A stretch of DNA of 64,000 nucleotides from contig JBHOQK010000011.1 in NCBI GenBank assembly GCA_042408205.1, forward strand, positions 6,348 through 70,347, in the 5' to 3' direction. A program made the position numbers and the translations under genes. The DNA is from Dehalococcoidia bacterium (GTDB lineage Bacteria > Chloroflexota > Dehalococcoidia > GIF9 > DYGU01). A model generated the notes under the pieces. The model was given only the letters and a program-made list of their open reading frames with translations, was not told where the DNA came from and ran no database searches. Position 1 is the first letter of the stretch, and each line of letters opens with the position of its first letter. This document shows, in pieces, positions 1 through 60,588 of the stretch.

Positions 1-1245
1 TTTGACCGCAGTCTGATTACAGGTTTATTCTTGGCTTCAACCACCCTACCTTACAAAGAAAAGCAATCAGCAGCTACCGTTGCCGCTGCTATCGACTTGG
101 GACGAGAAAGTTTAACTATTGATTTTACCGATTCGATCAGGGCTGGCACCAGTGCCTTACTTGTGGCTGCTAATATGATTAAAGCTGGTGCCATGAAAAA
201 CGTTTTAGTAATTGCCTCTGATTGTCGCTTGGGTATCCCTAACTCGGAACTAGAGTCTCTTTTTGGTGACGGTGCCGCTGCTCTCCTCCTTAGTGATTCC
301 GAGGTAGCAGTTAATATCACCGGTAGCTGTACTATCGCTGAGGAGTTTATTGACTGGTGGCGGACTGAAGGGGATCCTTTTGTCCGCACCTGGGAAGACC
401 GCTTTGTTGTAAATCAAGGTTATATTAGAAACCTTCAGGAAGTTACCTTTAGAATACTCAAAAAATATAATCTCGCAACCAAAGACTTAACCAAAGCTAT
501 TTTCTATGCTCCTGACCCCCGAAGCCATACTGCTTTGGCACGGACTTTAGGCTTTGACTTGAAAACCCAGGTAATACCTCCTTTATTTGATACTATAGGA
601 AATACAGGAACCGCCTTTGCTTTGATGATGTTAGTCGCTGCTTTAGACGAAGCCAGAGCTGGAGATAAAATACTTCTGACTAATTATGGGGATGGGGCTG
701 AGGCTTTTATTCTTGAGGTAACAGAGCATATAGATAAATTAAAAAATAGACGAACTTTAGCGAATTACCTTAAATCAAAGATGATGCTTTCCAGTTACGA
801 GAAGTATCTCCACTTTCGCCATATTATACCGGCAGAGTTAACCCGTCGTCCTGAGTTAAGCTCTTCAGTTCCCATAGTTTGGCGGGACCGAGAAAGTATA
901 TACCAATTTTACGGCGCTAAATGTCGACATTGCGGCACAGTACAATTTCCCCCAAGAAAAGTTTGCATTAACTGCCAAACTAAGGATCAATTTGAAAAGA
1001 TAAGGATGAGTGATAAAAAGGCAGAAATTTTTTCCTTTACTTTAGACACTATTTTCCCCACTCCTGATCCCCCTACAGTTATGGCAGTAATCAACTTCGA
1101 AGGTGGTGGTAGGATGAACTGCCATTTAACGGATCGGGATCCGAACACTGTTAAAGTTGGTATGCCTGTGGAAATGACTTTCCGTCGGATGCATACCGGG
1201 GCTGGCTTTTATAATTATTTTTGGAAAGCAAGACCAATTAGGTAA
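1..1245 (+). CDS. Archaeal-type HMG-CoA synthase fused to a C-terminal DUF35 (OB-fold/Zn-ribbon) domain. The gene is 5'-truncated by the window edge.
   Basis: The reading frame is open from base 1 (FDRSLITGLFLASTTLPYKEKQ) and aligns with the paralog at 57978 (IDRNKIDGLFFASTTFPYKEKQ), so the TTG at 31 is not the true start. The sequence carries condensing-enzyme motifs (VLVIASDCRLG, FGDGAAALLL). The C-terminal rubredoxin-like ribbon CRHCGTVQFPPRKVCINCQ is typical of DUF35/SCP-x-associated proteins. Confidence 0.7.
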   Translation, partial: FDRSLITGLFLASTTLPYKEKQSAATVAAAIDLGRESLTIDFTDSIRAGTSALLVAANMIKAGAMKNVLVIASDCRLGIPNSELESLFGDGAAALLLSDSEVAVNITGSCTIAEEFIDWWRTEGDPFVRTWEDRFVVNQGYIRNLQEVTFRILKKYNLATKDLTKAIFYAPDPRSHTALARTLGFDLKTQVIPPLFDTIGNTGTAFALMMLVAALDEARAGDKILLTNYGDGAEAFILEVTEHIDKLKNRRTLANYLKSKMMLSSYEKYLHFRHIIPAELTRRPELSSSVPIVWRDRESIYQFYGAKCRHCGTVQFPPRKVCINCQTKDQFEKIRMSDKKAEIFSFTLDTIFPTPDPPTVMAVINFEGGGRMNCHLTDRDPNTVKVGMPVEMTFRRMHTGAGFYNYFWKARPIR

Positions 1246-1256
1246 GGGAGGTAAAA

Positions 1257-2447
1257 TTGTCAAGCATAAAAGACAAGGTAGCTATAATCGGGACTGGTTG
1301 TACTAAATTTGGGGAACACTGGGATAAAAGTGCTCAAGATTTGATAGTAGAAGCAGTATATGAAGCCTTTGCCGATGCCAATATTGAGCCTAAGGATATA
1401 CAAGCTGCTTGGTTAGGCATTGTCTGGTCTGGAGAATCAGGGGTTTTTTTATCCCATGCTCTTCGCCTACCCTATATACCAGTTACCCGAGTAGAGAACC
1501 GATGTGGCAGTGGCATTGATGCCATTAGAAATGCCGCTTATGCTGTTGCTTCTGGAGCCTATGATATTGTTTTAGCTGTAGGAGCTGAGAAGCTTAAGGA
1601 CAGTGGTATCGTGGGGGTTCCTGCTTTTGGTAGTGAAGCTCATCCCGCTTATAGTGCTGGACTTGGCGGTGGTCCAGCTGGAGAATTTGCCTTCAGAGCT
1701 ACCCGGTATTTTTATAAATATGGTATAAGCCCAGAAAAGGGAAAAGAAGCTTTAGCCAAGATTGCAGTGAAAAATCATTATAATGGCTCATTAAATCCTA
1801 AAGCCCAATTTCAGCGGGAAATAACTTTAGAACAAGCCTTAAATGCTCCCATTATTGCCTGGCCCTTAGGACTTTTTGATTGTTGCCCAGTTAGCGATGG
1901 AGCCGCAGCTGCCATTTTATGCCGAGCCGATTTAGCCACAAACTTTCGAAAGGATCCTATCTACATTAAAGGGTTAGGATTAAGTTGCGGCTTTGGGGCT
2001 GATTACGGTAAGGACGATTACGACTTAACCCACTTTGAAGAAACTGTAGTTGCCGGGAAACGAGCTTACCAAGAGGCTGGAATAGAAAATCCTTTTGAGG
2101 AGATAAGTTTAGCTGAAGTTCACGATTGCTTTACCATAACTGAGCTTCTAATCTATGAAGATTTGGGGTTTTGCCCCCGGGGTGAAGCTATAAACTACAT
2201 TGATAGAGGTACTTTTACCCTCCAAGGTAAACTACCCGTTAACACTGATGGTGGTTTAAAATGTTTCGGTCATCCTTTAGGCGCCAGTGGTTTAAGAATG
2301 ACCTACGAAATATGTAAGCAGCTTCAGGGCAAAGCAGAAAAACGTCAATTAAAGGAACCTAAAATAGGTCTGGTTCACAATTTAGGACTAATTATGGGTG
2401 GTTCTGCCGTATGTGGGGTGGCTATTTTAGGAAAAGACAAAGATTGA
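1257..2447 (+). CDS. SCP-x/archaeal-type thiolase (acetyl-CoA C-acetyltransferase-like), partner of the HMGCS::DUF35 gene.
   Basis: The N-terminus KVAIIGTGCTKFGE carries the nucleophile Cys. The C-terminal GHPLGASGLRM is the thiolase signature. The RBS GGGAGG lies 12 nt downstream of the preceding stop, consistent with co-transcription. Confidence 0.8.
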   Translation: MSSIKDKVAIIGTGCTKFGEHWDKSAQDLIVEAVYEAFADANIEPKDIQAAWLGIVWSGESGVFLSHALRLPYIPVTRVENRCGSGIDAIRNAAYAVASGAYDIVLAVGAEKLKDSGIVGVPAFGSEAHPAYSAGLGGGPAGEFAFRATRYFYKYGISPEKGKEALAKIAVKNHYNGSLNPKAQFQREITLEQALNAPIIAWPLGLFDCCPVSDGAAAAILCRADLATNFRKDPIYIKGLGLSCGFGADYGKDDYDLTHFEETVVAGKRAYQEAGIENPFEEISLAEVHDCFTITELLIYEDLGFCPRGEAINYIDRGTFTLQGKLPVNTDGGLKCFGHPLGASGLRMTYEICKQLQGKAEKRQLKEPKIGLVHNLGLIMGGSAVCGVAILGKDKD

Positions 2448-2457
2448 AATATAAATC

Positions 2458-3066
2458 TTAACTGGTAGCTTCCTGATAAGCTTTATAACCTAAATTAAAA
2501 GCCTCAATATTAACTTGAGCTACTTTTGGGTTTGGAAAGCGGGATTCAATAGTTTCTTTTATAGTTTCTATTTTTATGGGGATGAGTCCAGTGCCAAAAG
2601 CAGCTCCCAGCATTACTATATTAGCTGAGCGAGGATTTCCCACTTCCGTTGCCAGCTTAAAAATATCTAAAGCTACTACCTTCCCTGAGTTCGCTTTCAG
2701 TATTTCGACAATTTGTTCTAATGAGGGGTAATTGCTTTTACCTATCAGAACCATAACCGGAAGAATTTTCCGAGTGTTAAGGATGACTATACTAGATTGA
2801 GAAAGATAACCGATATTTCTGAGACACTCTCCAGGCTCCATCCCTAACATGATATCGCACTTCCCCATGGGAATAAGAGCCGCGTATGTCTCACCCCCAA
2901 GCCTTATGGTACTAATTACAGGTCCACCCCTCACTGCCATGCCTAACACGTCAGAGCTTCTAACACTGATACCTTGCCTAACTGCAGCTTCTCCTAAAAG
3001 CTCTGAGATCATAATTACCCCCTGACCCCCCACTCCAGCGATAAATATATTAATTTCAGTTTTCAT
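2458..3066 (-). CDS. iorB: Indolepyruvate:ferredoxin oxidoreductase, beta subunit.
   Basis: The N-terminus IFIAGVGGQGVI is the oxidoreductase gamma-domain motif. Its ~200-aa size and position immediately downstream of iorA fit the known arrangement. Confidence 0.8.
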   Translation of the reverse strand: MKTEINIFIAGVGGQGVIMISELLGEAAVRQGISVRSSDVLGMAVRGGPVISTIRLGGETYAALIPMGKCDIMLGMEPGECLRNIGYLSQSSIVILNTRKILPVMVLIGKSNYPSLEQIVEILKANSGKVVALDIFKLATEVGNPRSANIVMLGAAFGTGLIPIKIETIKETIESRFPNPKVAQVNIEAFNLGYKAYQEATS

Positions 3067-3077
3067 TCCGCTCCTTG

Positions 3078-5030
3078 CTACAAGATAGCTTTATAGGGAC
3101 AAATCTGGGCGCAGACTCCGCAGGGAAAGCATAAAGTAGTATCTATAACTGCTTTCCCATTCTCCTTTGATATAGCTGGACAACCTAAAAGTTGAATACA
3201 AGCATTACATTTGTTACTGCATTTTTGGGGATCAACCTGATAAGGACGAAGAGGTTCCTCTTCTCTCCCTTTTCCCTCGATCATAGTCCAAGCAAACATA
3301 GCTTCGCCCTTTTTTCTCCTTCTCTCCCGCTCCCGCATAGCTAATATAGTACACATCCGCCTCATAACCACAAATGCCGGACCATCAAACTTAATTGCCT
3401 TTTCCATAACTTCAATTGCCTGCTTCAGGTCGTAAGGGTCAACAACTTCGACAAATTTAACTCCACAAGCTTTAGCCACATCTTCAGGTTTCAGCTGGAC
3501 AGCTTCCTCACCCATAGCAGTGGAGCCTGTCCCTGGATGAGGCTGAAAACCAGTCATAGAAGTAGCCGAATTATCTAATACAACCATAGTTATATTGGCT
3601 TTATTCCAAACCGCATTTATTAATGGAGGTATCCCAGCATGGAAGAAGGTTGAGTCACCCAAATGAGCTACCACCGGATTATCAACTATATGGGCAAAAC
3701 CGTTAGCTAATCCAAAACCTCCCCCCATACAAATAATAGAATCTACAGTTTCCAAAGGAGGCTCCACAGCTAAGGCATAACAACCAATATCACTGGGATA
3801 AATGGGTATTAAATCTTTACCCATTTCCCGAGCCACGCGTCTTGCCGCTACCTTAATGGCGTAATTAGAAGCCCGATGAGGACAACCCGGACATAAAATG
3901 GGTGGTCTTTTAGGTAAAAGAGGAGCTACTTCTTGATTAAATTTATCCAGCTTGGTGAAATCAATAGGAGATGGTACACCAACAAAATCAGCAATGGCTT
4001 TCACCACCTTTTCCGTAGATAACTCGCCGATTAACGGCACCAAATCTTTACCATGAATTTTAACCACTATACCAGCCTCAGCAGCGATTATTTTGGTATG
4101 ATTTTCCACAAATGGTTCCAGTTCCTCCACAACCAGTACCTTCTCCACCGAAGTCAAAAGCTTTCTAACCAACTCAGCCGGCAATGGATAGGAAGTGCCA
4201 ATTTTTAACAAGGAGACCTTGTCTTCCAATTGTAACCATCTGAGGGCTTCTAAGACATAACTATAAGAGAGACCGGACGCAATTATACCTATCTTTGAGC
4301 CTTGACTAAGTTTTAATTGATTATAAGGGAGCTGGTTTACTGCTTCTTTTATTTTCTCAAATCTCTGAATCATTAATACTCGGTTCCTTCTGGCTCCAGC
4401 GGGAGTATAAACTAACCAGGGGATATTTCTTTCCCAGGAAGCTTTTCTCTTTTCCTTGGGTAACTCTCCTAATACCACGTCGCCTCGTGAATGACTTAAC
4501 CTAGTCACACTCCTCAGGATAAAAGGCTGACCGAATTCTTCAGACAATTTAAAGGCATCAACGGTCATATCTTTAGCCTCTTGAACAGTAGAAGGTTCAA
4601 GAACAGGTATATAAGCTTGTTCGGCAACATATCGAGTATCTTGTTCATTTTGAGAACTCCACATCCAAGGGTCATCAGCTACCACTAATAACAGACCACC
4701 TTTAGCTCCAATATAACCAGCAGTCATTAGTGGGTCATGGCATACATTTACACCTACGTGCTTCATACACGCCATAGCTCTCACTCCACATATAGAGCCA
4801 GCTAAAGCTACTTCAAAAGCCACTTTCTCATTAACTGACCATTCCACATACATGCCAACACTTTTGGCTACCCAACCCAAAGAGCCCACTATTTCACTGG
4901 AAGGGGTGCCCGGATAAGCTGCCGCTACTTGGACTCCCGCTTCTATAGCTCCTCTGGCTATAGCTTCATTGCCCAAAAGGAACATCTTTTCCCCCGGCGC
5001 ATCTGAAATAATAGTTAATTCTTTCGCCAA
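3078..5030 (-). CDS. iorA: Indolepyruvate:ferredoxin oxidoreductase, alpha subunit, comprising TPP-binding domains plus a C-terminal 2x[4Fe-4S] domain.
   Basis: The protein is 650 aa. Two ferredoxin motifs are present (CSNKCNACIQLLGCP and CFPCGVCAQICP). The GDSTFFHAG sequence is the TPP-binding motif. Confidence 0.85.
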   Translation of the reverse strand: MAKELTIISDAPGEKMFLLGNEAIARGAIEAGVQVAAAYPGTPSSEIVGSLGWVAKSVGMYVEWSVNEKVAFEVALAGSICGVRAMACMKHVGVNVCHDPLMTAGYIGAKGGLLLVVADDPWMWSSQNEQDTRYVAEQAYIPVLEPSTVQEAKDMTVDAFKLSEEFGQPFILRSVTRLSHSRGDVVLGELPKEKRKASWERNIPWLVYTPAGARRNRVLMIQRFEKIKEAVNQLPYNQLKLSQGSKIGIIASGLSYSYVLEALRWLQLEDKVSLLKIGTSYPLPAELVRKLLTSVEKVLVVEELEPFVENHTKIIAAEAGIVVKIHGKDLVPLIGELSTEKVVKAIADFVGVPSPIDFTKLDKFNQEVAPLLPKRPPILCPGCPHRASNYAIKVAARRVAREMGKDLIPIYPSDIGCYALAVEPPLETVDSIICMGGGFGLANGFAHIVDNPVVAHLGDSTFFHAGIPPLINAVWNKANITMVVLDNSATSMTGFQPHPGTGSTAMGEEAVQLKPEDVAKACGVKFVEVVDPYDLKQAIEVMEKAIKFDGPAFVVMRRMCTILAMRERERRRKKGEAMFAWTMIEGKGREEEPLRPYQVDPQKCSNKCNACIQLLGCPAISKENGKAVIDTTLCFPCGVCAQICPYKAIL

Positions 5031-5231: not shown

Positions 5232-5774
5232 CTACTTGGGTGGGTGAACTATCTCTATAGTCGTCCGGTCAACGCACCCAGATAAAGCCCCCACAGCCTT
5301 CACCACATAAATCCCTGGAGGAAGGGGATTAAAGGTTTTCGGATCCGGTAATAGTAAAGAAGTCGTGGGGTCTACTGGTCGAAGAGGATCACCCCGCATG
5401 AATACTTGGTGAGCTGCAGGACCTACAGTTGCTGTAAATCTACCTGCTTCATCGGCTTGACCCCAGGCAATAGCAACACCTCCGTCTATGTCAACTTCCC
5501 CTTTCACTGTTGGTGCTATATCTTTAGGTAACATTAGTTTAATTACCACAACCTCTTTAGGCGCCCAGCCATAGCCTTTAAAGACAATTGGGGAAGGCTT
5601 GATGGGCCAGGACAATTCTAATTTTCCTGGACCCTCAATAACCCCTTCTGCCGCTGGAGGTGGAGGCGGTGGCGGTGGTGGAGGGGGTGGTGCTGGGGCA
5701 CAAGCGACTAAGGGTAAAACTAAAAGGAGCAATACTCCCAGAATAAAGGTTGCTTTTTTCAAATTAAAATACAT
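5232..5774 (-). CDS. Lipoprotein with a 13-residue polyproline linker (hypothetical).
   Basis: A strong RBS (AGGAGGGAGGG) precedes the ATG at 5774 (MYFNLKK). The signal peptide carries lipobox LVAC. A P13 run follows the lipid-anchor Cys. The upstream M at 5795 overlaps the substrate-binding-protein gene and is less likely the start. Confidence 0.6.
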   Translation of the reverse strand: MYFNLKKATFILGVLLLLVLPLVACAPAPPPPPPPPPPPPAAEGVIEGPGKLELSWPIKPSPIVFKGYGWAPKEVVVIKLMLPKDIAPTVKGEVDIDGGVAIAWGQADEAGRFTATVGPAAHQVFMRGDPLRPVDPTTSLLLPDPKTFNPLPPGIYVVKAVGALSGCVDRTTIEIVHPPK

Positions 5775-5788
5775 TTTCCCTCCCTCCT

Positions 5789-7030
5789 TTACCACTTGAA
5801 TAGAGCCACAGCATCAGGAGTTTTTACTGCTTCCTTACCAGGGATAGGAAGCACTTTGCCACCTTTGATCTGGTAGAATCGGACAGCATCACTGGCACGG
5901 CGGTTGGTCTCGGAATAAGTGCAGGGAGAGAAGAGAAGACCTTTCTGGTCGAAGCCAGTAAGCCCTTTGTAATGTTTGAAAACATCATCGGGGCTAAGTT
6001 TCTCATAGCTAACTTCTTTAAGGGCTCTTCTAATTACCTCTTCAAACTGTCGACCACGGTTTATTCCAGCAGCATAAGCTCCCCACATTTCCTTAACTGG
6101 AGTCCCGCGCCACTTCTCCCAGGTCTCCTTGACTAAAGGATGAGCCCGAGCTTCGTCCTCCCTGAGATAAAAACTACAAGTGATACAACCTTCAACCGCT
6201 TCTGGAGCCATTTTGACACCAGAGTGCTCATAAAGTCCCCAAGTATCGTTGAGAAACTGAATTTTTGGTATTAATCCCATACCAAAAGCGTCCCTAAGCA
6301 CAATAGCTGGAGTAGGATCAAGAGCTCCTATGTAAATATAGTTAGCTCCGCCGGCATCCAGTCGGGTAAGATAAGGTTTGTGGTCAAGGGTACCTACTGG
6401 GAAATATTCTGGAGGCAAAACTTTTACCCCTACTTTTTCGGCATATTCCTTGCCACCACGGGGGTGTTCCCGACCATAGGCATTATCCCAACCCATGTAA
6501 CCCATTGTTGGTAACCCTGGCTTTCCTTTGGCTTTCCAGTCCGCGACTATAAAGTCAACCACAGCAGCAAACTGATCTTGGTAAGCTGGACCAAGGAGGA
6601 ACATTCTCCCCAGCTTTGCTTGCCATTCTCCATCAGCCGGAGTGAAAGAAACAACTTTGTCAGCTTCGGCTAAAGGACCACAAGCCTTACCCAAAGGAGT
6701 GCCACCAAACCAGACAGCCATCAGTTTAGGCTCTCCCCGATACCTCATGTAACCAGATACAGCTCGAGAAACATCATAACGAGTATCCACCGCTATAAAC
6801 TTTATTTTCACCCCATCAATACCACCCTTGGCATTCACTCCTTTAAACCAGTCTTCCACACCCATGGCCATAGCTAAGTCAGCAGTGGTAACTGGTCCTG
6901 TAGCATCATGGAGAGATAGATAGGTAACAAATTTCTCTGGTGCTGGGGCTTTGGGAGCACAGCCACTAACCACCAGCCCTACCACAAGAAGAACTGATAA
7001 AATCCCCACGCTTATTACTTTTGTTTTCAA
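5789..7030 (-). CDS. ABC transporter substrate-binding lipoprotein, Liv/branched-chain-amino-acid (type I PBP) family. Probably an aromatic or organic acid binder.
   Basis: The signal peptide ends in lipobox VVSGC. The sequence shows LivJ-like fold features (GYMGWDNAYG, the ~410-aa length). It is the first gene of a 5-gene permease/ATPase/ligase operon. Confidence 0.75.
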   Translation of the reverse strand: MKTKVISVGILSVLLVVGLVVSGCAPKAPAPEKFVTYLSLHDATGPVTTADLAMAMGVEDWFKGVNAKGGIDGVKIKFIAVDTRYDVSRAVSGYMRYRGEPKLMAVWFGGTPLGKACGPLAEADKVVSFTPADGEWQAKLGRMFLLGPAYQDQFAAVVDFIVADWKAKGKPGLPTMGYMGWDNAYGREHPRGGKEYAEKVGVKVLPPEYFPVGTLDHKPYLTRLDAGGANYIYIGALDPTPAIVLRDAFGMGLIPKIQFLNDTWGLYEHSGVKMAPEAVEGCITCSFYLREDEARAHPLVKETWEKWRGTPVKEMWGAYAAGINRGRQFEEVIRRALKEVSYEKLSPDDVFKHYKGLTGFDQKGLLFSPCTYSETNRRASDAVRFYQIKGGKVLPIPGKEAVKTPDAVALFKW

Positions 7031-12857: not shown

Positions 12858-13877
12858 GTGGACTTTAAAGTTGTGGCTACTTATGAGCACCCCATAAGAC
12901 CCCTCGATAAAAAAGATTTTGAACAAATAGGGGTTGAATTTATTCAGAAGGCATGTACTACTGGAGATGAAATTATAGCTGTTGCCGGGGATGCCGATGC
13001 TGTCATACCTTTAGTAGAGGAATACACAAAAAGAGTAATTGAAAATTTGAAAAAATGCCGGTTGATAGTTACACCCAAGGTGGGGGTGGAAAATATAGAT
13101 ATAGCCGCAGCCACAGAACAAGGCATTTTAGTAGCTAATGCTGCTGAATTGTGTCGAGAGGAAGTCGCAGAACACACTATGGCACTTCTTTTAGCCTGTG
13201 TGCGTAAATTAATAAAGCTCCATAAGGCAGCCGAGAAAGGTTTATGGAAAGGCTTAATGTGTGAAGAAATTCGCCAGATATGGCCCCCTATGTCACGTCT
13301 TTCTGGACAAACTTTAGGGCTTATTGGCTTTGGCAGAATTGCCCGAGCTGTGGTACCTAAAGCTAAAGGATTTGGCTTAAATATTATTGCTTATGATCCT
13401 TATGTTCCTGAAGCGGTGGCTAAAGAATTCGGAGTGGAGTTAGTTGATTTAGATAGGCTTCTTAAAGAGTCAGATTATATCTCCCTTCATGCGGCTCAAA
13501 CTAAGGAGAATTATCATTTAATAGGCTTGAAGGAATTTAAGAAAATGAAGCCGACTGCTTATATTATCAACACTGCCCGAGGAACGCTTATTGATGAACA
13601 AGCTCTTTATACCGCCTTGAAGGAAGGTTATATTGCTGGAGCTGGTCTTGATGTTTTAGAAACAGAGTTTATTCACCCAAATAACCCATTGCTCAGCTTA
13701 GACAATGTTATCATTTCTTGTCACTCTGCCCACTATTCTGATAATTCCTGGCCTCTCTATCCAAAACTCCCTGCGGAAGAAATAGCACGAGTTATACGAG
13801 GAGAATTACCTAAAAACTTAGTCAATCCAAAGGCTGTGGATAAATACTGGCAAAAGTGGGGAAAGGAGGGAAAGTAA
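12858..13877 (+). CDS. D-isomer-specific 2-hydroxyacid dehydrogenase (NAD-binding). A candidate aryl-lactate/aryl-pyruvate dehydrogenase.
   Basis: The Rossmann motif GLIGFGRIARAV and a catalytic region with CHSAHYSD are present. The gene has a GTG start with an RBS. Confidence 0.75.
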   Translation: MDFKVVATYEHPIRPLDKKDFEQIGVEFIQKACTTGDEIIAVAGDADAVIPLVEEYTKRVIENLKKCRLIVTPKVGVENIDIAAATEQGILVANAAELCREEVAEHTMALLLACVRKLIKLHKAAEKGLWKGLMCEEIRQIWPPMSRLSGQTLGLIGFGRIARAVVPKAKGFGLNIIAYDPYVPEAVAKEFGVELVDLDRLLKESDYISLHAAQTKENYHLIGLKEFKKMKPTAYIINTARGTLIDEQALYTALKEGYIAGAGLDVLETEFIHPNNPLLSLDNVIISCHSAHYSDNSWPLYPKLPAEEIARVIRGELPKNLVNPKAVDKYWQKWGKEGK

Positions 13878-13878
13878 A

Positions 13879-15087
13879 ATGCCTGGACCTTTAGATGGCG
13901 TCAGGGTTGTCGAAATAACTATGTTTCAGCAAGGACCAGTAGCTGGGATGAGGTTAGGGGATTTAGGAGCTGATGTAATTAAAGTCGAACCCAAAACTGG
14001 TGACCCAGGTAGGGGAATGATGAGAATTATTGGCACTATGACAGGTCTAAAAGGACGCAATTATTATTTTGAGAACTGCAATCGGAACAAAAGAAGTATT
14101 GCTCTTGACCTAAAAACCAAAAAGGGGATGGAGATATTTTTAAAATTGATTGATACGGCTGATGTTTTCCTTACCAATCTGAGTATTGAGGCACCAATAA
14201 AGATGGGTATTGGTCCTGAAGTTCTGCTTAAAAGAAATCCCCGATTAATTTATGCTCAGGCTTCCGGCTGGGGGCGGAAGGGTCCTGATGCCCACGAGCT
14301 TTCTTTTGATTACACGGGAATAGCTCGGTCGGGACTAATGATGTCGTGTGGTGAGCGTGGTTCACCTCCTGCCCAGATTCTGCCAGGAATGGGTGATGAG
14401 TTAGGCGGACTTATTTGCGCTTGGGCAGTAACTGCTGCCCTTTACGCTCGAGAAAAAACTGGGAAAGGACAACTGGTGGATACATCTCTAATGGGAAGCT
14501 TGATTGCCATGCTCAGTCTAATAATGGCAGCTCCAGCTATCTTGGGACAGGAATTTCCCCGGGAAATTAGAGCTGAAGCCGGCAACCCTCTCTGGAACCA
14601 CTATCGGTGTAAAGATGACAAATGGATTGCCCTTGCCCACCTCCAACCAGATAGATACTGGCCAAACGTTTGTCGGGCGCTGGGCATTACCGAATTGGAA
14701 AACGATCCCAGATTTAACAGTATTGAAAATAGGGGAAAGAATGCTAAAGAACTCATAGCCATTATGGATGAAAAATTTGCTTCCAAAACGAGAGACGAAT
14801 GGTTAGAAATTTTACGGAAAGAAGGTTGCATTTGTACCCCCATCCAATCGCCTATGGAAGTATCTAACGATCCCCAAGCTTTAGCTAACAATTATTTTAT
14901 TTATGTTGACCACCCAGTGTGGGGGAAAACAAAAGTAGTTGGTTTTCCTTGGGATTTCAGTGACACCCCAGCCTCTTGGCGCCGGGAAGCCCCAGAGCTT
15001 GGTCAGCACACTGAAGAAATATTATTAGAGCTGGGTTATACTTGGGATGATATTGTAGAATTGAAAGAAGAAGGGGTAATATTGTAG
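13879..15087 (+). CDS. Family III CoA-transferase (CaiB/BaiF/Frc family).
   Basis: The N-terminus GVRVVEITMFQQGPVAGMRLGDLGADVIKVEP is diagnostic of family III CoA-transferases. The protein is 402 aa. Confidence 0.8.
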   Translation: MPGPLDGVRVVEITMFQQGPVAGMRLGDLGADVIKVEPKTGDPGRGMMRIIGTMTGLKGRNYYFENCNRNKRSIALDLKTKKGMEIFLKLIDTADVFLTNLSIEAPIKMGIGPEVLLKRNPRLIYAQASGWGRKGPDAHELSFDYTGIARSGLMMSCGERGSPPAQILPGMGDELGGLICAWAVTAALYAREKTGKGQLVDTSLMGSLIAMLSLIMAAPAILGQEFPREIRAEAGNPLWNHYRCKDDKWIALAHLQPDRYWPNVCRALGITELENDPRFNSIENRGKNAKELIAIMDEKFASKTRDEWLEILRKEGCICTPIQSPMEVSNDPQALANNYFIYVDHPVWGKTKVVGFPWDFSDTPASWRREAPELGQHTEEILLELGYTWDDIVELKEEGVIL

Positions 15088-15109
15088 AAAACAAAAGGAG
15101 GTAAAACTA

Positions 15110-15871
15110 ATGTTAGATTACACTGGAAAAACAGCTATAGTAACGGGAGGAGCCCGAGGAATTGGCAAGGCTATTTGTCTAACTCTGGCAAGGCAAGGAG
15201 CTGACATAGCTATTGCTGATATTTTAGAAGAAGAAGGTGCCACCACAGCTAAAGAAATTCAACAATTGGGTCGACAAGCTTTGTTTGTCAAAACTGACCT
15301 GACCAAAAAGGAAGAAGTAGATAGGATGGTAAATCAGGTTCTTACGACCTTTGGCAAAATAGATATTTTGGTAAATAATGCTGGCTGGGATAAAATAGAA
15401 CTTTTTGTCAACAATTCCCCCGAATTCTGGGATAAAGTAATTGCCATAAACTTTAAGCACCAAATATATACCACCAGAGCCGTCCTTGACCATATGATGA
15501 AAAGAAAATATGGTCGGATTATAAATATTGGCTCTGATGCCGGTAGAGTTGGTAGTACTGGAGAAGCCGTTTACTCAGGCTGTAAGGGAGCTTTAATTGC
15601 CTTTACCAAAACCCTGGCTCGAGAACTGGCACGATATGGTATAACCGTAAATTGCATTTGTCCCGGACCAACCGAAACTCCTTTAGCTGAGCAAATGAAG
15701 CAAGAAGAACTGGGGAGCAAGATTTTTGCCGCTATGGAGAAAATAATTCCCTTAGGCAGACTATGTACCCCTCAAGACGTTGCCAATGCTGTAGCCTTTT
15801 TTGCTTCTGACGAAGCCAGTTATATTACTGGGCAAACCTTAAGTGTTAGCGGTGGACTAACTATGGTATAA
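15110..15871 (+). CDS. Short-chain dehydrogenase/reductase (FabG-like 3-oxoacyl/3-hydroxyacyl dehydrogenase).
   Basis: The NAD-binding motif TGGARGIGKA is present. The catalytic residues fall in YSGCKGAL (YxxxK). Confidence 0.8.
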   Translation: MLDYTGKTAIVTGGARGIGKAICLTLARQGADIAIADILEEEGATTAKEIQQLGRQALFVKTDLTKKEEVDRMVNQVLTTFGKIDILVNNAGWDKIELFVNNSPEFWDKVIAINFKHQIYTTRAVLDHMMKRKYGRIINIGSDAGRVGSTGEAVYSGCKGALIAFTKTLARELARYGITVNCICPGPTETPLAEQMKQEELGSKIFAAMEKIIPLGRLCTPQDVANAVAFFASDEASYITGQTLSVSGGLTMV

Positions 15872-15919: not shown

Positions 15920-16519
15920 TTAATGGGGCATAATTAAAGTAAAATAAGAAGGAAGTATACCTGTAGGACAGAGAGGATAGCACTCTTGACAACCTGGGCA
16001 TTCCTTACGAGCTATTGCAGGAAATAGAACAACCTCCTTTTGTGTTCCTCTGCCAATAAAGCCAATAGCATGTTTCTTTTTCACCTCTGCACAATAACGG
16101 ACACATAGACCACAAAGAATACAGAAGGTAGGTTCAGTCTCAAATCTTTTGGCTTGGGCTTCGGTTATACCATATTTTAATCCGTAATTTCGTAATTCAT
16201 AGTTTCTTAAGGCTTGGATTCCCGGAACCCGAGCCCACAAAAGTTCTAATAAAAGCTTCCGAATTTTGACTACCCTTTCCGATTCTGTCTCTACTATTAA
16301 TCCATCCTCAACCGGATAAACACAAGAAGCAACCAATCTTGAGTGCTTTCCTCTAATTATCTCCACAGTGCAAAGGCGGCAAGCACCATAAGGAGCTAAC
16401 TTTTCATGGTAACAAAGAGTAGGAATGTCAATACCAATTCCTTTTGCTGCTTGAAGAATGGTCATTTCCGTTTCTGCGGTAACCTTTATGCCATTGATAA
16501 CTAAATTAATCGCCTTCAT
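15920..16519 (-). CDS. Ferredoxin resembling the NuoG/HndD N-terminus, with a [2Fe-2S] site plus 2x[4Fe-4S]. Likely the terminal electron-transfer subunit of the Bam-like complex, BamI-like but truncated.
   Basis: The 2Fe-2S ligands are CYHEKLAPYGACRLC. The 4Fe-4S ligands are CILCGLCVRYC and CPGCQECYPLCP. It is the last gene of the bam-like operon. Confidence 0.6.
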   Translation of the reverse strand: MKAINLVINGIKVTAETEMTILQAAKGIGIDIPTLCYHEKLAPYGACRLCTVEIIRGKHSRLVASCVYPVEDGLIVETESERVVKIRKLLLELLWARVPGIQALRNYELRNYGLKYGITEAQAKRFETEPTFCILCGLCVRYCAEVKKKHAIGFIGRGTQKEVVLFPAIARKECPGCQECYPLCPTGILPSYFTLIMPH

Positions 16520-16546
16520 TTTCCTTTGCCCGGCTTCTTCCTTCTT

Positions 16547-17110
16547 TTACTTCCAGTAACTCCACCACCAGCTTTGTCCTTTTTTAGTTAAAGCCTCTTG
16601 CCTTTTAGTAATGTAGTCTGAGATTAAATCTTTATTCTCCCGGACATACCTTTCAACTGCTTCGAGATCTTGTCTTAATCGCCCCAGGTCTTTCCCTTCA
16701 CTTATCCCAAGGGGTCCCAATTCCTTTAGTTGATGGGTGAATTTAGTCATAATTTCTGCAAAACGAATTCCTTCAGAAGCTGATACCCATTCTATCCGTA
16801 GTCTTTCCGGATTCAACCCTATTTGAGAAAGTAGTTTCTTACATAAATTTGTCATCTCTAATGCCTTATAATTTCCTTCTGTGACATAATGGCATTCCCC
16901 AAGCCAACAACCACCAATAAACACCCCATCAGCCCCTTTCAGGAAAGCCCGAAAAACAAAAACGGGGTCGACCCTTCCTGAACACATCACCCTTATTACC
17001 CTTATATTAGGGGGATATTGGTAACGAGAGACTCCTGCCAGGTCAGCCCCAGCATAGGCACACCAATTGCATAAAAAGCCTAAAATCTTTGGTTCATAAC
17101 CATATTTCAT
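16547..17110 (-). CDS. bamF: MvhD/FlpD-like [2Fe-2S] protein, BamF-like.
   Basis: The MvhD signature is LGFLCNWCAYAGAD...CSGRVDP. A 4-nt overlap with the upstream HdrA-like gene suggests translational coupling. Confidence 0.7.
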   Translation of the reverse strand: MKYGYEPKILGFLCNWCAYAGADLAGVSRYQYPPNIRVIRVMCSGRVDPVFVFRAFLKGADGVFIGGCWLGECHYVTEGNYKALEMTNLCKKLLSQIGLNPERLRIEWVSASEGIRFAEIMTKFTHQLKELGPLGISEGKDLGRLRQDLEAVERYVRENKDLISDYITKRQEALTKKGQSWWWSYWK

Positions 17111-20178: not shown

Positions 20179-20190
20179 TTTCTCCTACCT

Positions 20191-21000: not shown

Positions 21001-21016
21001 GTTAAACTTTTTGATT

Positions 21017-27036: not shown

Positions 27037-27048
27037 AAGGAGGAAAAA

Positions 27049-28206: not shown

Positions 28207-28216
28207 AGGAGGAACC

Positions 28217-28720: not shown

Positions 28721-28729
28721 GAGGTGAAG

Positions 28730-30495: not shown

Positions 30496-30516
30496 TTTTT
30501 AGTGAGGTGAAAGACA

Positions 30517-57977: not shown

Positions 57978-59414
57978 TTGGAAGTTGGTATTGTGTCTTT
58001 TGGTGTTTATGTTCCTTTTTATCGTCTAAGCCGGGATTTGATAGCCAAAGCTTGGGGTGGGCGGTCTATTGGAGGTGAAAGAAGTGTCGCCAATTATGAT
58101 GAAGACAGTATCACTATGGCAGTACAGGCGGCTGTCAATTGCTTGGGTGATATAGACCGGAACAAAATTGATGGTTTATTTTTCGCCTCCACCACTTTTC
58201 CCTATAAAGAAAAGCAGTGCTCAAGCATAGTAGCAGGAGCAGTGGATTTGCGACGGGACATTATTACCGTTGATTTTGCCAATTCTTTGCGGGGCAGCAC
58301 TAATGCCTTAAGATTAGCTATCGATACTGTTAGTAACAAGTCAGCCAGAAATGTTCTGGTAGTAGCTGCCGATAGTCGCCTTGGCTACCCGCAGTCCCTG
58401 CATGAACAAAGTTTTGGTGACGGAGCCGCGGCTATTCTTGTAGGAAATTCATCACCTATTGCCTATATAGAAGCTCAAGTATCCATTTCTGACGATATAA
58501 TCGATGTTTGGCGATTAGATACAGATACCTTTGTCCGCTCCTGGGAAGACCGCTGGGTACTCAGTTATGGTTATGCTAAAAATGTGAAAGAAGCTGTATC
58601 ACGAATTATGAAGGAAAATAATTTGGTTGCTGGAGATATAGCGAGGGTAGCCATTTGCGCTCCTGAAGTTAGGAGTCAAAGGGAGCTGGCGCGGGATTTA
58701 GGCTTTACCACCTCTCAGCTTCAAGAACCCTTGTTAGAAAATATAGGCAATACTGGAGCGGCTCATCCACTACTTTTGTTAGCTTTAGCTTTGGACGAAG
58801 CTAAGACTGGAGAAAGGATCCTTTTAGCCAGTTATGGAGATGGAAGTGACGCTTTTCTTTTGCGAGTAACTAAGCCCATCAAAGAAGCTAAAAGCCACCA
58901 AGACATAAAAAGACATTTGGCAACTAAAAAAGCCTTACCCACTTACGAAAAGTATTTAGTTTACCGCCAATTGTTAGCTCAGCCTGAAGAATTTGTCCGT
59001 CTTTTCCCTTCGGCAACAGTAATGTGGCGGACGCGAAATTGGGTCTTAGCTGGTCATGGGAGTAAATGTAAGCGCTGTGGTTTAGTTACTTTTCCTATCC
59101 AACGAATCTGCTACGGCTGTCAGGCTAAAGATGAATACGAAGAAATAAGGCTCACTGACAAAAAGGGAAAAGTTTTTACTTTTTCTTTAGATTATTTGGC
59201 AGGGACTCCTAACCCGCCGGTAATTCAGACCATAGTTGAGTCTGAAGGAGGGGCAAGAATCTATTGTTTAATGACCGATTGCGAGCCTGAAGAAGTTAAA
59301 GTAGATATGCCTGTAGAAATGGTATTCCGCAAATTTCATCAAATTGGTGGTTTCCATAACTATTTCTGGAAGTGTCGTCCAGTAAGGGAGGTATTAAATT
59401 ATGGAGAGCATTAA
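57978..59414 (+). CDS. Archaeal-type HMG-CoA synthase fused to a C-terminal DUF35 domain (full-length paralog of the gene at 1-1245).
   Basis: A TTG start follows AGGAG. The archaeal-HMGCS-type N-terminus VGIVSFGVYVPFYRLSRDLIAKAWGG...NYDEDSITMAVQAA is present. The condensing-enzyme Cys region VVAADSRLG and FGDGAAAILV are present. The C-terminal ribbon is CKRCGLVTFPIQRICYGCQ. Confidence 0.75.
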   Translation: MEVGIVSFGVYVPFYRLSRDLIAKAWGGRSIGGERSVANYDEDSITMAVQAAVNCLGDIDRNKIDGLFFASTTFPYKEKQCSSIVAGAVDLRRDIITVDFANSLRGSTNALRLAIDTVSNKSARNVLVVAADSRLGYPQSLHEQSFGDGAAAILVGNSSPIAYIEAQVSISDDIIDVWRLDTDTFVRSWEDRWVLSYGYAKNVKEAVSRIMKENNLVAGDIARVAICAPEVRSQRELARDLGFTTSQLQEPLLENIGNTGAAHPLLLLALALDEAKTGERILLASYGDGSDAFLLRVTKPIKEAKSHQDIKRHLATKKALPTYEKYLVYRQLLAQPEEFVRLFPSATVMWRTRNWVLAGHGSKCKRCGLVTFPIQRICYGCQAKDEYEEIRLTDKKGKVFTFSLDYLAGTPNPPVIQTIVESEGGARIYCLMTDCEPEEVKVDMPVEMVFRKFHQIGGFHNYFWKCRPVREVLNYGEH

Positions 59415-60588
59415 GGACAAAGTAGCTATTGTTGGTATGGGCTGTTGTAAGTTTGGGGAAAACTGGGAGCAGAGTCCCGAAGATATGATAATAGAAGCTG
59501 CCTATGAAGCTTATGCTGATGCCGGGATTGAACCCAAAGATATTCAGGCAGCCTGGGTAGGAACAGTTAGTGCTCATTGGATAGGTATAGGAGGGTTATG
59601 CTTAGCCGAACCGTTAAAGCTTCCACGAATCCCAGTAACCCGAGTCGAAAATTATTGTGCTACTGGACATGAAGCTCTTAGAAATGCCGTTTTTGGTGTT
59701 GCCAGCGGTATGTATGATATTGTTTTAGCTTTAGGTTTTGAGAAACTGAAAGACACGGGTTTTCCAGGGCTGGGTGTAGGGAGAGGGATGCACCCAGTTT
59801 TGGAGATGCGGCGAACTGCTCCAGGTTCATTTGCTTTAATTGCTACCAGATATTTTTATACTTATGGTTTAAGCCCGAATGAGGGTAAAAGAATTTTGGC
59901 TAAGATTGCTGTTAAAAATCACTATAACGGGAGCTTGCATCCTAAGGCTCATCTACGACGGGAAGTAACTTTAGAACAAGTCTTAAACGCTCCCATTATT
60001 GCCTGGCCTTTAGGGCTGTTTGATTGTTGTGGGAATAGTGATGGCGCCGCAGCAGCGATATTAGTTCGGGGAGATATGGCAAAGAAGTTTCGCGATGACC
60101 CTGTTTATATAAAAGGAATAGGTCTATCCCAGAACCCCATGATGCCCCATTTTGAGCCTGGTTTTGATTGGACTGGTTTTGAGGTAAACCGAATTGCCAG
60201 CCGACAAGCGTATCAGCAAGCAGGGATAACTAAGCCACGGCAACAGCTGGATTTGGCTGAAGTTCATGATTGTTTTACTATTACTGAACTTGTAATATAT
60301 GAAGATTTTGGTTTTAGCCCAAAAGGAGCTGCCAAAGAGGATGTAGAAGCTGGAAGTTTTACCTTAAATGGTGAGTTGCCTGTTAACAGTGATGGAGGAT
60401 TAAAAGCTTTCGGACACCCTGTGGGTGCCAGTGGACTGAGGATGACTTATGAAGTCTATAAACAGCTCCAAGGAAAAGCCGAGCTACCTTCTCGTCAGTT
60501 AAAGAAAGCCGAATTGGGCTTGTCTCATACCTTAGGTGGCCATCCTCAAGTAAGTTGTGTGGCTATTTTTGGCATTAATCCGGGGTGA
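59401..60588 (+). CDS. SCP-x/archaeal-type thiolase, paralog of 1257-2447 with ~70% identity over the N-terminus.
   Basis: KVAIVGMGCCKFGE and GHPVGASGLRM are present. The gene overlaps the upstream gene by 14 nt. Confidence 0.8.
   Translation: MESIKDKVAIVGMGCCKFGENWEQSPEDMIIEAAYEAYADAGIEPKDIQAAWVGTVSAHWIGIGGLCLAEPLKLPRIPVTRVENYCATGHEALRNAVFGVASGMYDIVLALGFEKLKDTGFPGLGVGRGMHPVLEMRRTAPGSFALIATRYFYTYGLSPNEGKRILAKIAVKNHYNGSLHPKAHLRREVTLEQVLNAPIIAWPLGLFDCCGNSDGAAAAILVRGDMAKKFRDDPVYIKGIGLSQNPMMPHFEPGFDWTGFEVNRIASRQAYQQAGITKPRQQLDLAEVHDCFTITELVIYEDFGFSPKGAAKEDVEAGSFTLNGELPVNSDGGLKAFGHPVGASGLRMTYEVYKQLQGKAELPSRQLKKAELGLSHTLGGHPQVSCVAIFGINPG

What the first reader, a model, noticed from the sequence alone, without database searches (positions are those of the whole stretch)
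1..2447. Archaeal-type HMG-CoA synthase::DUF35 fusion plus thiolase module (copy 1), directly abutting iorAB
The thiolase/HMGCS/DUF35 trio is known from the archaeal mevalonate pathway as a substrate-channelling complex, where DUF35 is a separate scaffold protein. Here DUF35 is fused to the C-terminus of the HMGCS-like enzyme and the module occurs twice in 64 kb (see 57978-60588). This copy is adjacent to aryl-pyruvate oxidoreductase genes rather than isoprenoid genes. The HMGCS-like enzymes may therefore have been recruited for a different Claisen-type C-C chemistry on CoA esters.
Basis: partly seen in the sequence, partly recalled or inferred. Interest (0 to 1): 0.55.

Follow-up and report, generated by a model that had tools for sequence, protein, structure and literature searches.

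The report
Inactive HMGS–DUF35 scaffold with active thiolase
Two gene pairs on this Dehalococcoidia contig each encode a working thiolase next to an HMG-CoA-synthase look-alike that has lost its catalytic residues and is fused to a zinc-ribbon/OB scaffold; this is a widespread, recently described kind of thiolase complex linked to acyl-CoA breakdown, not a mevalonate-pathway module.

Summary
An HMGS-like::DUF35 fusion gene sits directly upstream of an archaeal/SCP2-type thiolase gene, once at 1-2447 (5' end cut by the window edge) and once at 57978-60588. The interpretation needs correcting. In both fusions the HMG-CoA synthase catalytic residues are gone: Glu82 is Thr, Cys114 is Ile or Leu, and His238 is Tyr or Cys. 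Every relative I examined also lacks the Glu and Cys. These comprise 120 protein-database hits, 82 genes from genome loci spanning many bacterial phyla and Bathyarchaeia, and five fusions from further loci, four of them on plasmids of cultured bacteria and a haloarchaeon. The partner thiolases keep Cys, HDCF and GHP. This matches the PfACAT/HMGS-DUF35 complex of Pseudomonas fluorescens (Nat Commun 2026), which cleaves acetoacetyl-CoA and makes no HMG-CoA. Neighbouring genes elsewhere are beta-oxidation enzymes, CoA-transferases and, in one locus, an acetone carboxylase operon. None are mevalonate genes, and Dehalococcoidia are reported to be MEP-only. The two copies are old paralogues (46% and 61% identity). 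The iorBA genes are convergent, and this arrangement recurs only in close orthologues of copy 1. My verdict is a new member of a known kind. It is of moderate interest, mainly as an annotation pitfall and as a stable pseudo-enzyme scaffold.

The parts
1..1245 (+). Copy 1 fusion gene, 5'-truncated by the window edge (the first window codon is residue 58 of 471). It carries an HMGS-like domain with no catalytic residues, fused to DUF35. The HMGS-like domain runs to about nt 819, the Zn ribbon CxxC...CxxC is at 922-975, and the OB fold is at about 1012-1185. Former catalytic positions: Thr (40-42), Ile (136-138), Tyr (505-507), Asn (601-603).
1257..2447 (+). Copy 1 thiolase, 396 aa, archaeal/SCP2 type. 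Nucleophile Cys83 is at 1503-1505, the HDCF motif starts at His289 (2121-2123), and the GHP His339 is at 2271-2273. The TTG start follows a GGGAGG Shine-Dalgarno sequence.
   Evidence: (NF004810: 548 bits, cutoff 403)
57978..59414 (+). Copy 2 fusion gene, complete at 478 aa. Former catalytic positions are Thr72 (58191-58193), Leu104 (58287-58289), Cys227 (58656-58658) and Asn258 (58749-58751). The Zn ribbon is at 59067-59120 and the OB fold at about 59160-59330.
59401..60588 (+). Copy 2 thiolase, 395 aa, overlapping the fusion gene by 14 nt. Cys86 is at 59656-59658, the HDCF His289 at 60265-60267, and the GHP His339 at 60415-60417.
   Evidence: (NF004810: 540 bits, cutoff 403)
2458..5030 (-). 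Context only: iorB (2458-3066) and iorA (3078-5030), convergent with the copy 1 thiolase. This synteny is kept only in close orthologues of copy 1.

Best explanation
Each gene pair encodes a two-protein thiolase complex.

- Catalytic subunit (sequence shown, activity inferred): the archaeal/SCP2-type thiolase, which has the Cys nucleophile, the HDCF acid/base motif and the GHP oxyanion His.
- Non-catalytic subunit (inferred): the HMGS-like::DUF35 protein. Its thiolase-fold domain has lost Glu, Cys and His, so it cannot form an acyl-enzyme or make HMG-CoA.
- How they fit together (inferred by analogy with the solved archaeal, Phl and Muc complexes): the DUF35 zinc-ribbon/OB part clamps the pseudo-HMGS dimer to the thiolase, and the pseudo-HMGS completes the shared CoA-binding chamber and keeps the thiolase soluble and active.
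- Likely reaction (inferred): thiolysis of acetoacetyl-CoA or other short, branched or aryl 3-oxoacyl-CoAs at the end of beta-oxidation-like pathways. This rests on gene neighbourhoods in relatives and on the biochemistry of the P. fluorescens member. The reaction is reversible in principle.
- Not involved: the mevalonate pathway.
- The two copies are long-diverged paralogues and probably differ in substrate. Copy 2 sits among housekeeping genes (rsmG, thiC). Copy 1 sits in a locus for amino-acid uptake and indolepyruvate oxidoreductase.
For: Catalytic residues:
- Catalytic-site replacements were read from the PDB alignment and from MAFFT alignments against M. thermolithotrophicus HMGS.
- Position 82 is Thr and position 114 is Leu, Ile, Val, Thr or Pro in 120 of 120 database homologues and in 82 of 82 genes from genome loci of many phyla.
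- The same positions are Thr or Ala and Leu, Pro or Thr in Novosphingobium, Rhodococcus, Azoarcus and Haladaptatus plasmid homologues.
- Partner thiolases keep HDxF and GHP in 66 of 69 cases and are named acetyl-CoA acetyltransferase by NF004810.

The dead domain is not decaying:
- Mean pairwise identity is 48% for the HMGS-like domain, 48% for DUF35 and 58% for the thiolase over 61 gene pairs.

Structure and gene order:
- The AF2 model's best fold matches are the archaeal complex HMGS (TM-score normalised to the target 0.85), then PhlA and MucA.
- The fusion-then-thiolase order recurs in most loci, and in the window the genes have overlapping or tightly spaced starts.

Gene neighbourhoods:
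- Over 74 loci: enoyl-CoA hydratase in 16, acyl-CoA dehydrogenase in 13, 3-hydroxyacyl-CoA dehydrogenase in 9, family III CoA-transferase in 8, methylmalonyl-CoA mutase in 7, acyl-CoA ligase in 6.
- One locus has fusion-thiolase, 3-oxoacid CoA-transferase A/B and acetone carboxylase, an operon whose logic needs an acetoacetyl-CoA thiolase.
- Others have fusion-thiolase-ACAD-ECH-MCM and fusion-thiolase-MaoC-MaoC-SDR.
- Cultured-organism plasmids carry the pair inside ACAD/SDR/ECH operons.

Literature (PMC12960953):
- A fused HMGS-DUF35 lacking E-C-H-N, paired with an ACAT that keeps Cys, HDxF and GHx, made no HMG-CoA or acetoacetyl-CoA but cleaved acetoacetyl-CoA.
- The H294Y change in its HDxF motif nearly abolished that activity.
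Against: - No biochemistry exists for these proteins, and complex formation is inferred only from homology and gene order.
- The physiological substrate and direction are unknown. Neither window copy has beta-oxidation genes immediately beside it.
- Several charged residues conserved in at least 95% of the family but different in real HMGS (E77, R104, R133, D147, E189 in copy-1 numbering) could mark a ligand site rather than a mere interface.
- The AF2 model is only moderate (pLDDT 70.8), and its linker is unmodelled.
- Direct sequence comparison with the P. fluorescens protein was not possible because the sequence is not held.
Confidence: 0.7

Rival explanations
1. [quoted passage not shown]
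For: - The best fold and sequence matches include the archaeal complex 6ESQ.
- The NCBIfam HMGS model NF003274 scores 233 and 240 bits, just under its cutoff of 244.
- Many MAG annotations call these proteins HMG-CoA synthase.
Against: - Glu82, Cys114 and His238 are replaced in both copies and in every relative examined.
- Mutating the tetrad kills HMG-CoA formation.
- TIGR00748 scores 166-170 bits against a cutoff of 353.
- No HMG-CoA reductase motif was found in any ORF of the related loci, and none of the neighbour gene families annotated at 74 loci is a mevalonate enzyme.
- Dehalococcoidia are reported as MEP-only.
- Bathyarchaeia, which need a real HMGS, also carry the dead fusion.
Confidence: 0.02
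2. The complex is a PhlACB/MucABC-like Friedel-Crafts C-acyltransferase that moves acetyl groups onto a phenolic or tetramic-acid acceptor.
For: - PhlA is the top PDB sequence hit (3e-36).
- PhlA and MucA are also catalytically dead HMGS homologues that work with a thiolase-like subunit and DUF35.
Against: - PhlC and MucB lack the HDxF motif, whereas both window thiolases and most partners keep HDCF.
- PhlA has Cys, Gly, Gln and Asp at the tetrad positions, not Thr, Leu/Ile, Tyr/Cys and Asn.
- No PKS or NRPS genes lie near either copy.
- The thiolases match the archaeal ACAT far better than PhlC (5e-65 against 3e-31).
Confidence: 0.05
3. The thiolase works mainly in the condensing direction. 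Possible roles are reverse beta-oxidation, an archaeal-FAS-like pathway, or, for copy 1, condensing IOR-derived aryl-acetyl-CoA with acetyl-CoA. The dead HMGS/DUF35 part would recruit a downstream enzyme that pulls the unfavourable reaction.
For: - KT/DUF35 pairs act biosynthetically in the proposed archaeal fatty acid synthase (bioRxiv 2024.07.05.601840).
- One copy-1 relative is followed by MaoC, MaoC and SDR genes, as in that system.
- The convergent iorBA and the flanking flavoprotein gene are kept in close copy-1 orthologues. A distant Novosphingobium homologue also has an IOR-family gene 3.5 kb away.
Against: - The P. fluorescens complex gave no detectable acetoacetyl-CoA from acetyl-CoA.
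- The commonest neighbours include acyl-CoA dehydrogenases, acyl-CoA ligases and an acetone carboxylase operon, which point to catabolism.
- IOR adjacency is absent from 80 diverse loci.
Confidence: 0.15
4. The HMGS-like domain is not just a scaffold. It has gained a new Cys-independent catalytic or regulatory ligand-binding function.
For: - It is almost as conserved as the thiolase (48% against 58% mean identity).
- It carries family-specific, near-invariant charged residues around the old active site.
- Thr82 and Leu114 are themselves fixed rather than drifting.
Against: - Conservation is equally expected for an obligate interface and a shared CoA chamber.
- Positions 238 and 270 drift freely.
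- No new activity was reported for the characterised member.
Confidence: 0.08

Closest known systems
PfACAT/HMGS-DUF35 complex of Pseudomonas fluorescens (Nat Commun 2026, PMC12960953)
   Same: - Single polypeptide with an HMGS-like domain fused to DUF35.
- The catalytic Glu, Cys and His of HMGS are lost.
- The adjacent thiolase keeps Cys, HDxF and GHx.
- No PKS or NRPS neighbours.
- It belongs to the large uncharacterised class of bacterial HMGS/ACAT/DUF35 loci (1,001 of 1,030).
   Different: - The host is an anaerobic Dehalococcoidia with two diverged paralogous modules.
- Asn270 of the tetrad is retained here.
- No activity data exist for the window proteins.
- Sequence identity to the Pseudomonas protein is unknown.
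- The paper calls its complex an evolutionary intermediate. The breadth and conservation found here point to a stable, selected family.
[quoted passage not shown]
   Same: - The same three modules and folds, and the best structural match (TM-score normalised to the target 0.85).
- The thiolase shares Cys, HDCF and GHx.
- DUF35 has the Cys4 zinc ribbon and OB fold.
   Different: - There the HMGS is active (E82, C114, H238, N270) and drives mevalonate synthesis by channelling.
- DUF35 is a separate protein there.
- Here the HMGS part is dead and fused, and no mevalonate context exists.
PhlACB (PDB 5M3K/5MG5) and MucABC (PDB 9VBO/9VBT) C-acyltransferases
   Same: A dead HMGS homologue, a thiolase-like catalytic subunit and DUF35 assembled into one complex.
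   Different: - Their thiolase-like subunit has lost HDxF and acylates aromatic or tetramic-acid acceptors.
- Their DUF35 is a separate protein.
- They sit in PKS or NRPS clusters.
- Their replacement residues at the tetrad differ (Cys, Gly, Gln, Asp).
BbsAB benzoylsuccinyl-CoA thiolase (PDB 7PXP)
   Same: An SCP2-type thiolase with the HDxF motif that needs a non-catalytic DUF35 partner and works in anaerobic beta-oxidation-like catabolism.
   Different: It has no HMGS-like domain. Matches are weak (DUF35 part 9e-4, thiolase 1e-44).

Membership tests
Archaeal thiolase/HMGCS/DUF35 mevalonate complex | HMGS subunit with the catalytic E-C-H-N tetrad | tested here: not met
   Copy 1 has T, I, Y, N and copy 2 has T, L, C, N.
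Archaeal thiolase/HMGCS/DUF35 mevalonate complex | SCP2/archaeal-type thiolase with Cys, HDxF and GHx | tested here: met
   VENRCGSG or VENYCATG, VHDCF, and GHPLG or GHPVG. 6esq_A matches at 5e-65.
Archaeal thiolase/HMGCS/DUF35 mevalonate complex | DUF35 zinc ribbon plus OB fold | tested here: met
   Pfam zf-ChsH2 and OB_ChsH2_C. CxxC...CxxC present. 6esq_E matches at 1.5e-15. Here it is fused, not a separate protein.
Archaeal thiolase/HMGCS/DUF35 mevalonate complex | Operates in a genome or locus with the rest of the mevalonate pathway | tested here: inconclusive
   None is in the window, among the annotated neighbour families at 74 related loci, or in an HMG-CoA reductase motif scan of the related loci. 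The contig is Dehalococcoidia, reported as MEP-only. The whole genome could not be scanned.
PfACAT/HMGS-DUF35-type thiolase complex | HMGS-like domain and DUF35 in one polypeptide | tested here: met
PfACAT/HMGS-DUF35-type thiolase complex | HMGS catalytic residues lost | tested here: met
   Glu, Cys and His are lost. Asn is retained in both window copies but is variable in the family.
PfACAT/HMGS-DUF35-type thiolase complex | Adjacent thiolase retains catalytic Cys, HDxF and GHx | tested here: met
PfACAT/HMGS-DUF35-type thiolase complex | No PKS/NRPS or other secondary-metabolite genes nearby | tested here: met
   Pfam scans of nearly all window ORFs of at least 110 aa found no PKS or NRPS; the two permease genes were read from the L001 gene table. 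A fabF-like KAS II gene (29254-30495) lies more than 26 kb from either copy.
PfACAT/HMGS-DUF35-type thiolase complex | Cleaves acetoacetyl-CoA and forms no HMG-CoA | not testable with these tools
   Needs enzyme assays. The operon with acetone carboxylase and 3-oxoacid CoA-transferase in a 56% relative is only circumstantial.
PfACAT/HMGS-DUF35-type thiolase complex | Sequence orthology to the characterised P. fluorescens proteins | not tested
   The sequence or accession is not available in the held text, and no supplement is held.
PhlACB/MucABC Friedel-Crafts acyltransferases | Thiolase-like subunit lacking the HDxF motif | tested here: not met
   HDCF is present in both copies.
PhlACB/MucABC Friedel-Crafts acyltransferases | Embedded in a type III PKS or NRPS-PKS gene cluster | tested here: not met
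Ltp2/Sal-type DUF35-bound steroid aldolases | Thiolase-fold subunit without the nucleophilic Cys | tested here: not met
   Cys83 and Cys86 are present. By contrast, the separate cluster at 25882-28206 does lack the Cys.

The most novel reading that the evidence does not exclude
The pseudo-HMGS domain is more than a scaffold. Its family-specific conserved charged residues would form a new binding or catalytic site. In the copy-1 lineage this site would present IOR-derived aryl-acetyl-CoA or branched acyl-CoA to the thiolase. The result would be an IOR-coupled C-C bond forming or cleaving complex, specific to anaerobic Dehalococcoidia, with a substrate range unlike any characterised thiolase.
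Probability: 0.08. Interest if true: 0.6.

Novelty: new member of a known kind. Interest (0 to 1): 0.3.

Why it matters
- Annotation: many MAG records label these proteins 'hydroxymethylglutaryl-CoA synthase'. That label can create a false mevalonate pathway in metabolic reconstructions of Dehalococcoidia, Thermodesulfobacteriota, Bathyarchaeia and others. Checking two residues (Thr for Glu82, Leu or Ile for Cys114) removes the error.
- Biology: a dead enzyme has been kept under purifying selection as an obligate partner of a thiolase in hundreds of species of bacteria and archaea, often in two or more paralogous copies per genome. This argues for a stable functional class rather than the transient 'evolutionary intermediate' proposed from the single characterised member.
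- Open question: the physiological substrates of this large family remain unknown.

Tried and rejected
- Rfam scan of the whole window at gathering thresholds gave no hits. There is therefore no detectable TPP riboswitch between the copy-2 thiolase and thiC.
- The promoter and terminator consensus scan around copy 2 found no more than the shuffled controls.
- Vogeli et al. 2018 (PMC5879682) is not held, so its content is cited only through PMC12960953.
- No supplement is held for PMC12960953, so the P. fluorescens sequences could not be compared.
- The cluster-member lookup gave no organism names. Taxonomy was instead inferred from named UvrA hits.
- A BLAST search for iorA, iorB, thiC and cinA homologues in 80 diverse related loci found none. 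Only rsmG recurs, in 4 Dehalococcoidia loci.
- An HMG-CoA reductase motif search in those loci found nothing.
- I considered that copy 1 matches the second gene of the tandem double modules seen in other Dehalococcoidia (L004, L005, L025, L053, L062). Identities of 45-52% do not single out an orthologue.
- The AF2 monomer model has only moderate confidence, so it was used for fold assignment only.
Full report
**What is in the sequence**

Frame 1 of the + strand is open from base 1 to a stop at 1245. The first gene therefore runs off the left edge of the window. An overlapping public contig, L001, supplies the whole gene, which is 471 aa, and shows a divergently transcribed Pyr_redox_2 flavoprotein gene upstream.

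Pfam finds the KAS-III/HMGS-type thiolase fold (ACP_syn_III and ACP_syn_III_C), followed by zf-ChsH2 and OB_ChsH2_C. Those last two domains together make up DUF35.

The next gene, 1257-2447, is a thiolase of the Thiolase_C_1 (SCP2/archaeal) type. It starts 11 nt after the fusion's stop, behind a GGGAGG ribosome-binding site.

The same pair recurs at 57978-59414 and 59401-60588 with a 14-nt overlap.

Two details need correcting:
- Copy 1 is truncated by the window edge.
- iorB (2458-3066) and iorA (3078-5030) lie on the opposite strand, tail-to-tail with the thiolase. They abut it but cannot share a transcript. They are IOR-type: iorA scores 768 bits on TIGR03336 against a cutoff of 651, and iorB falls just under the TIGR03334 cutoff.

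**The HMGS-like part has no catalytic residues**

PDB searches give PhlA (3e-36) and the HMGS of the Methanothermococcus thiolase/HMGS/DUF35 complex (6esq_I, 2e-35) for residues 1-330. They give the DUF35 chain of that complex (6esq_E, 1.5e-15) for residues 360-470.

In the printed alignment the acyl-accepting Cys114 of the archaeal enzyme faces a Leu. A MAFFT alignment against the archaeal sequence shows the E82/C114/H238/N270 tetrad as follows:

| Protein | E82 | C114 | H238 | N270 |
|---|---|---|---|---|
| Copy 1 | T | I | Y | N |
| Copy 2 | T | L | C | N |

This is a property of the whole family, not a local accident:
- Among the 120 best database homologues, position 82 is Thr in 118 and Ser in 2. 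Position 114 is Leu in 116, Ile in 3 and Pro in 1.
- In 82 fusion genes from 80 genome loci the pattern is the same. These loci come from Chloroflexota, Thermodesulfobacteriota, Actinomycetota, Acidobacteriota, Armatimonadota, Nitrospinota, Peptococcaceae and Bathyarchaeia.
- Full-length homologues at 25-36% identity on plasmids of Novosphingobium, Rhodococcus, Azoarcus and the haloarchaeon Haladaptatus also lack Glu and Cys.
- Positions 238 and 270 drift.

NCBIfam agrees. The fusions fall just below the HMGS model NF003274 (233 and 240 bits against a cutoff of 244). They fall far below TIGR00748 (166-170 bits against 353).

**The thiolases look fully competent**

Both match the archaeal acetoacetyl-CoA thiolase 6esq_A best (5e-65). 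Both keep the nucleophile Cys, the HDCF motif and the GHP histidine. They pass NCBIfam NF004810, acetyl-CoA acetyltransferase, with 548 and 540 bits against a cutoff of 403. Of 69 partner thiolases in the related loci, 66 keep both HDxF and GHP.

**The dead domain is under selection**

Over 61 fusion/thiolase gene pairs the mean pairwise identities are:

| Part | Mean pairwise identity |
|---|---|
| HMGS-like domain | 48% |
| DUF35 | 48% |
| Thiolase | 58% |

Divergence of the HMGS-like domain and the thiolase is correlated (r = 0.63).

Twenty-six residues conserved in at least 95% of the family are shared with real HMGS. Sixteen are family-specific, including E77, R104, R133, D147 and E189.

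An AlphaFold2 model of copy 2 (pLDDT 70.8, pTM 0.69, linker 317-353 unmodelled) finds the archaeal complex HMGS as its best fold match, with a TM-score normalised to the target of 0.85. PhlA follows at 0.80 and MucA at 0.76.

**What is already known**

A 2026 paper (PMC12960953) describes this architecture.
- In Pseudomonas fluorescens, a fused HMGS-DUF35 lacking the E-C-H-N tetrad is paired with an ACAT that keeps Cys, HDxF and GHx.
- The purified complex makes neither HMG-CoA nor acetoacetyl-CoA from acetyl-CoA, but it cleaves acetoacetyl-CoA.
- An H294Y change in the HDxF motif nearly abolishes that activity.
- Replacing the tetrad in the archaeal complex abolishes HMG-CoA formation.
- The authors counted 1,030 bacterial HMGS/ACAT/DUF35 loci, of which 1,001 have no secondary-metabolite neighbours and remain uncharacterised.
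- The PhlACB and MucABC acyltransferases differ because their thiolase-like subunit has lost HDxF. The window thiolases have not.

PhlA carries Cys, Gly, Gln and Asp at the tetrad positions, a different set of replacements from the Thr/Leu family.

**Gene context**

Neither window copy has mevalonate genes nearby.
- Copy 2 lies between rsmG and thiC-cinA-speH. That synteny is kept in a 77% orthologue, and rsmG recurs upstream in four Dehalococcoidia loci.
- Copy 1 lies between the flavoprotein gene and iorBA. A Liv-type ABC transporter and an acyl-CoA ligase follow.

Across 74 related loci the commonest neighbours are:

| Neighbour | Loci |
|---|---|
| Enoyl-CoA hydratase | 16 |
| Acyl-CoA dehydrogenase | 13 |
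| 3-hydroxyacyl-CoA dehydrogenase | 9 |
| Family III CoA-transferase | 8 |
| Methylmalonyl-CoA mutase | 7 |
| Acyl-CoA ligase | 6 |

No HMG-CoA reductase motif was found.

Individual operons are informative:
- Fusion-thiolase, 3-oxoacid CoA-transferase A/B and acetone carboxylase. Here acetoacetyl-CoA thiolysis is the logical last step.
- Fusion-thiolase-ACAD-ECH-MCM.
- Fusion-thiolase-MaoC-MaoC-SDR.
- ACAD-SDR-fusion-ACAT-ECH-ECH on a Novosphingobium plasmid, next to a FadD3-type ligase.
- Similar layouts in Rhodococcus, Azoarcus and Haladaptatus.

The order is fusion then thiolase in most loci, and the reverse in the four Bathyarchaeia loci where a partner thiolase was found and in Haladaptatus.

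**The iorAB adjacency**

No iorA or iorB homologue occurs in the 80 diverse loci. Close orthologues of copy 1, at 72% and 80% identity, keep the same layout: divergent flavoprotein, then fusion-thiolase, then convergent iorB-iorA. In one lineage IorA is fused to a Pyr_redox_2 domain. Relatives at 65%, 57% and 56% identity do not keep the layout.

A distant Novosphingobium homologue has an IOR-family gene 3.5 kb away.

This can be explained by shared ancestry of a small lineage. It leaves a low-probability functional link open but does not establish one.

**Organism and isoprenoid pathway**

The window's UvrA has its best named matches (79-81% identity) only in Dehalococcoidia/Chloroflexi MAGs. 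GC content is 42%.

A published survey states that the Dehalococcoidia, Ktedonobacteria and SAR202 clade contains only MEP-pathway species (PMC6107057). It is largely moot, because neither copy can be a canonical HMGS.

**Paralogy**

The two fusions are 46% identical and the two thiolases 61%. The duplication is therefore old. Several Chloroflexota genomes carry two modules in tandem (L004, L005, L025, L053, L062) or divergently. This suggests specialisation for different substrates.

**Conclusion**

The finding is a real, twice-occurring gene pair. It is a member of the recently described class of thiolase complexes with an inactive, DUF35-fused HMGS scaffold.

- Shown here: the domain architecture, the loss of catalytic residues across the family, the intact thiolase motifs, the conserved gene order, and the beta-oxidation-type neighbourhoods.
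- Inferred: physical complex formation, the scaffold and CoA-chamber role of the dead domain, thiolysis as the physiological direction, and the substrates.

Noticed in passing
window 25882-29206 (+), with 22696-25523 (-) and 29254-31662 (+): A third thiolase/DUF35 cluster. Two SCP2-type thiolase-like genes both lack the nucleophile Cys (Ser, Gly), the HDxF His (Asp, Tyr) and the GHP His (Trp, Asn). Two separate DUF35 genes with intact zinc ribbons follow, then a fabF-like KAS II and an acyl-CoA dehydrogenase. A PaaX-family regulator and an aldehyde:ferredoxin oxidoreductase lie just upstream on the other strand. This could be an Ltp2/Sal-like retro-aldolase whose aldehyde product is oxidised by the AOR. 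That idea is untested.
   Followed up: partly
L001:801-2048 (-), immediately left of the window; L084:9734-13054: A Pyr_redox_2 flavoprotein with partial similarity to CoA-disulfide reductase and PadH is transcribed divergently from copy 1. In orthologous loci IorA itself is fused to a Pyr_redox_2 domain (1106 aa), which hints at an NAD(P)H-linked IOR. The thiolase module sits between these two possibly linked genes.
   Followed up: partly
window 37211-38488 (+): A full-length serpin (Pfam Serpin, 1.7e-122) on a Dehalococcoidia contig, between uvrA and a metallo-beta-lactamase-fold gene.
   Followed up: no
window 5232-5795 (-): A 187-aa ORF with a hydrophobic N-terminus followed by a run of 12 prolines. 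It has no Pfam match and is wedged between iorA and the Liv-type periplasmic binding protein gene.
   Followed up: no
window 15920-22159 (-): A block of a 1023-aa HdrA-like flavoprotein, FlpD (MvhD-like), a 2Fe-2S/4Fe-4S protein, a CCG-domain HdrB/D-like protein and FdhD, next to the AOR gene. It looks like an electron-bifurcation-type module.
   Followed up: no
window 12858-15871 (+): A D-2-hydroxyacid dehydrogenase, a family III CoA-transferase and an SDR in a row, downstream of the IOR/ABC-transporter block. This is reminiscent of the reductive aryl-lactate branch of amino-acid fermentation, but no dehydratase was seen.
   Followed up: no
copy-1 numbering T71, T72, E77, R104, R133, G146, D147, E189 (window copy 1 codons about 40-396; equivalent positions in copy 2): These residues are at least 95% conserved in 82 dead-HMGS fusions but differ from the archaeal active HMGS. 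Several are charged and lie near the former active-site motifs. Whether they form an interface or a new ligand site is unexplained.
   Followed up: partly
L004, L005, L025, L053, L062 (tandem); L090 and L023 (divergent): Many Chloroflexota genomes carry two fusion-thiolase modules side by side. In this window the two paralogues are 56 kb apart.
   Followed up: partly
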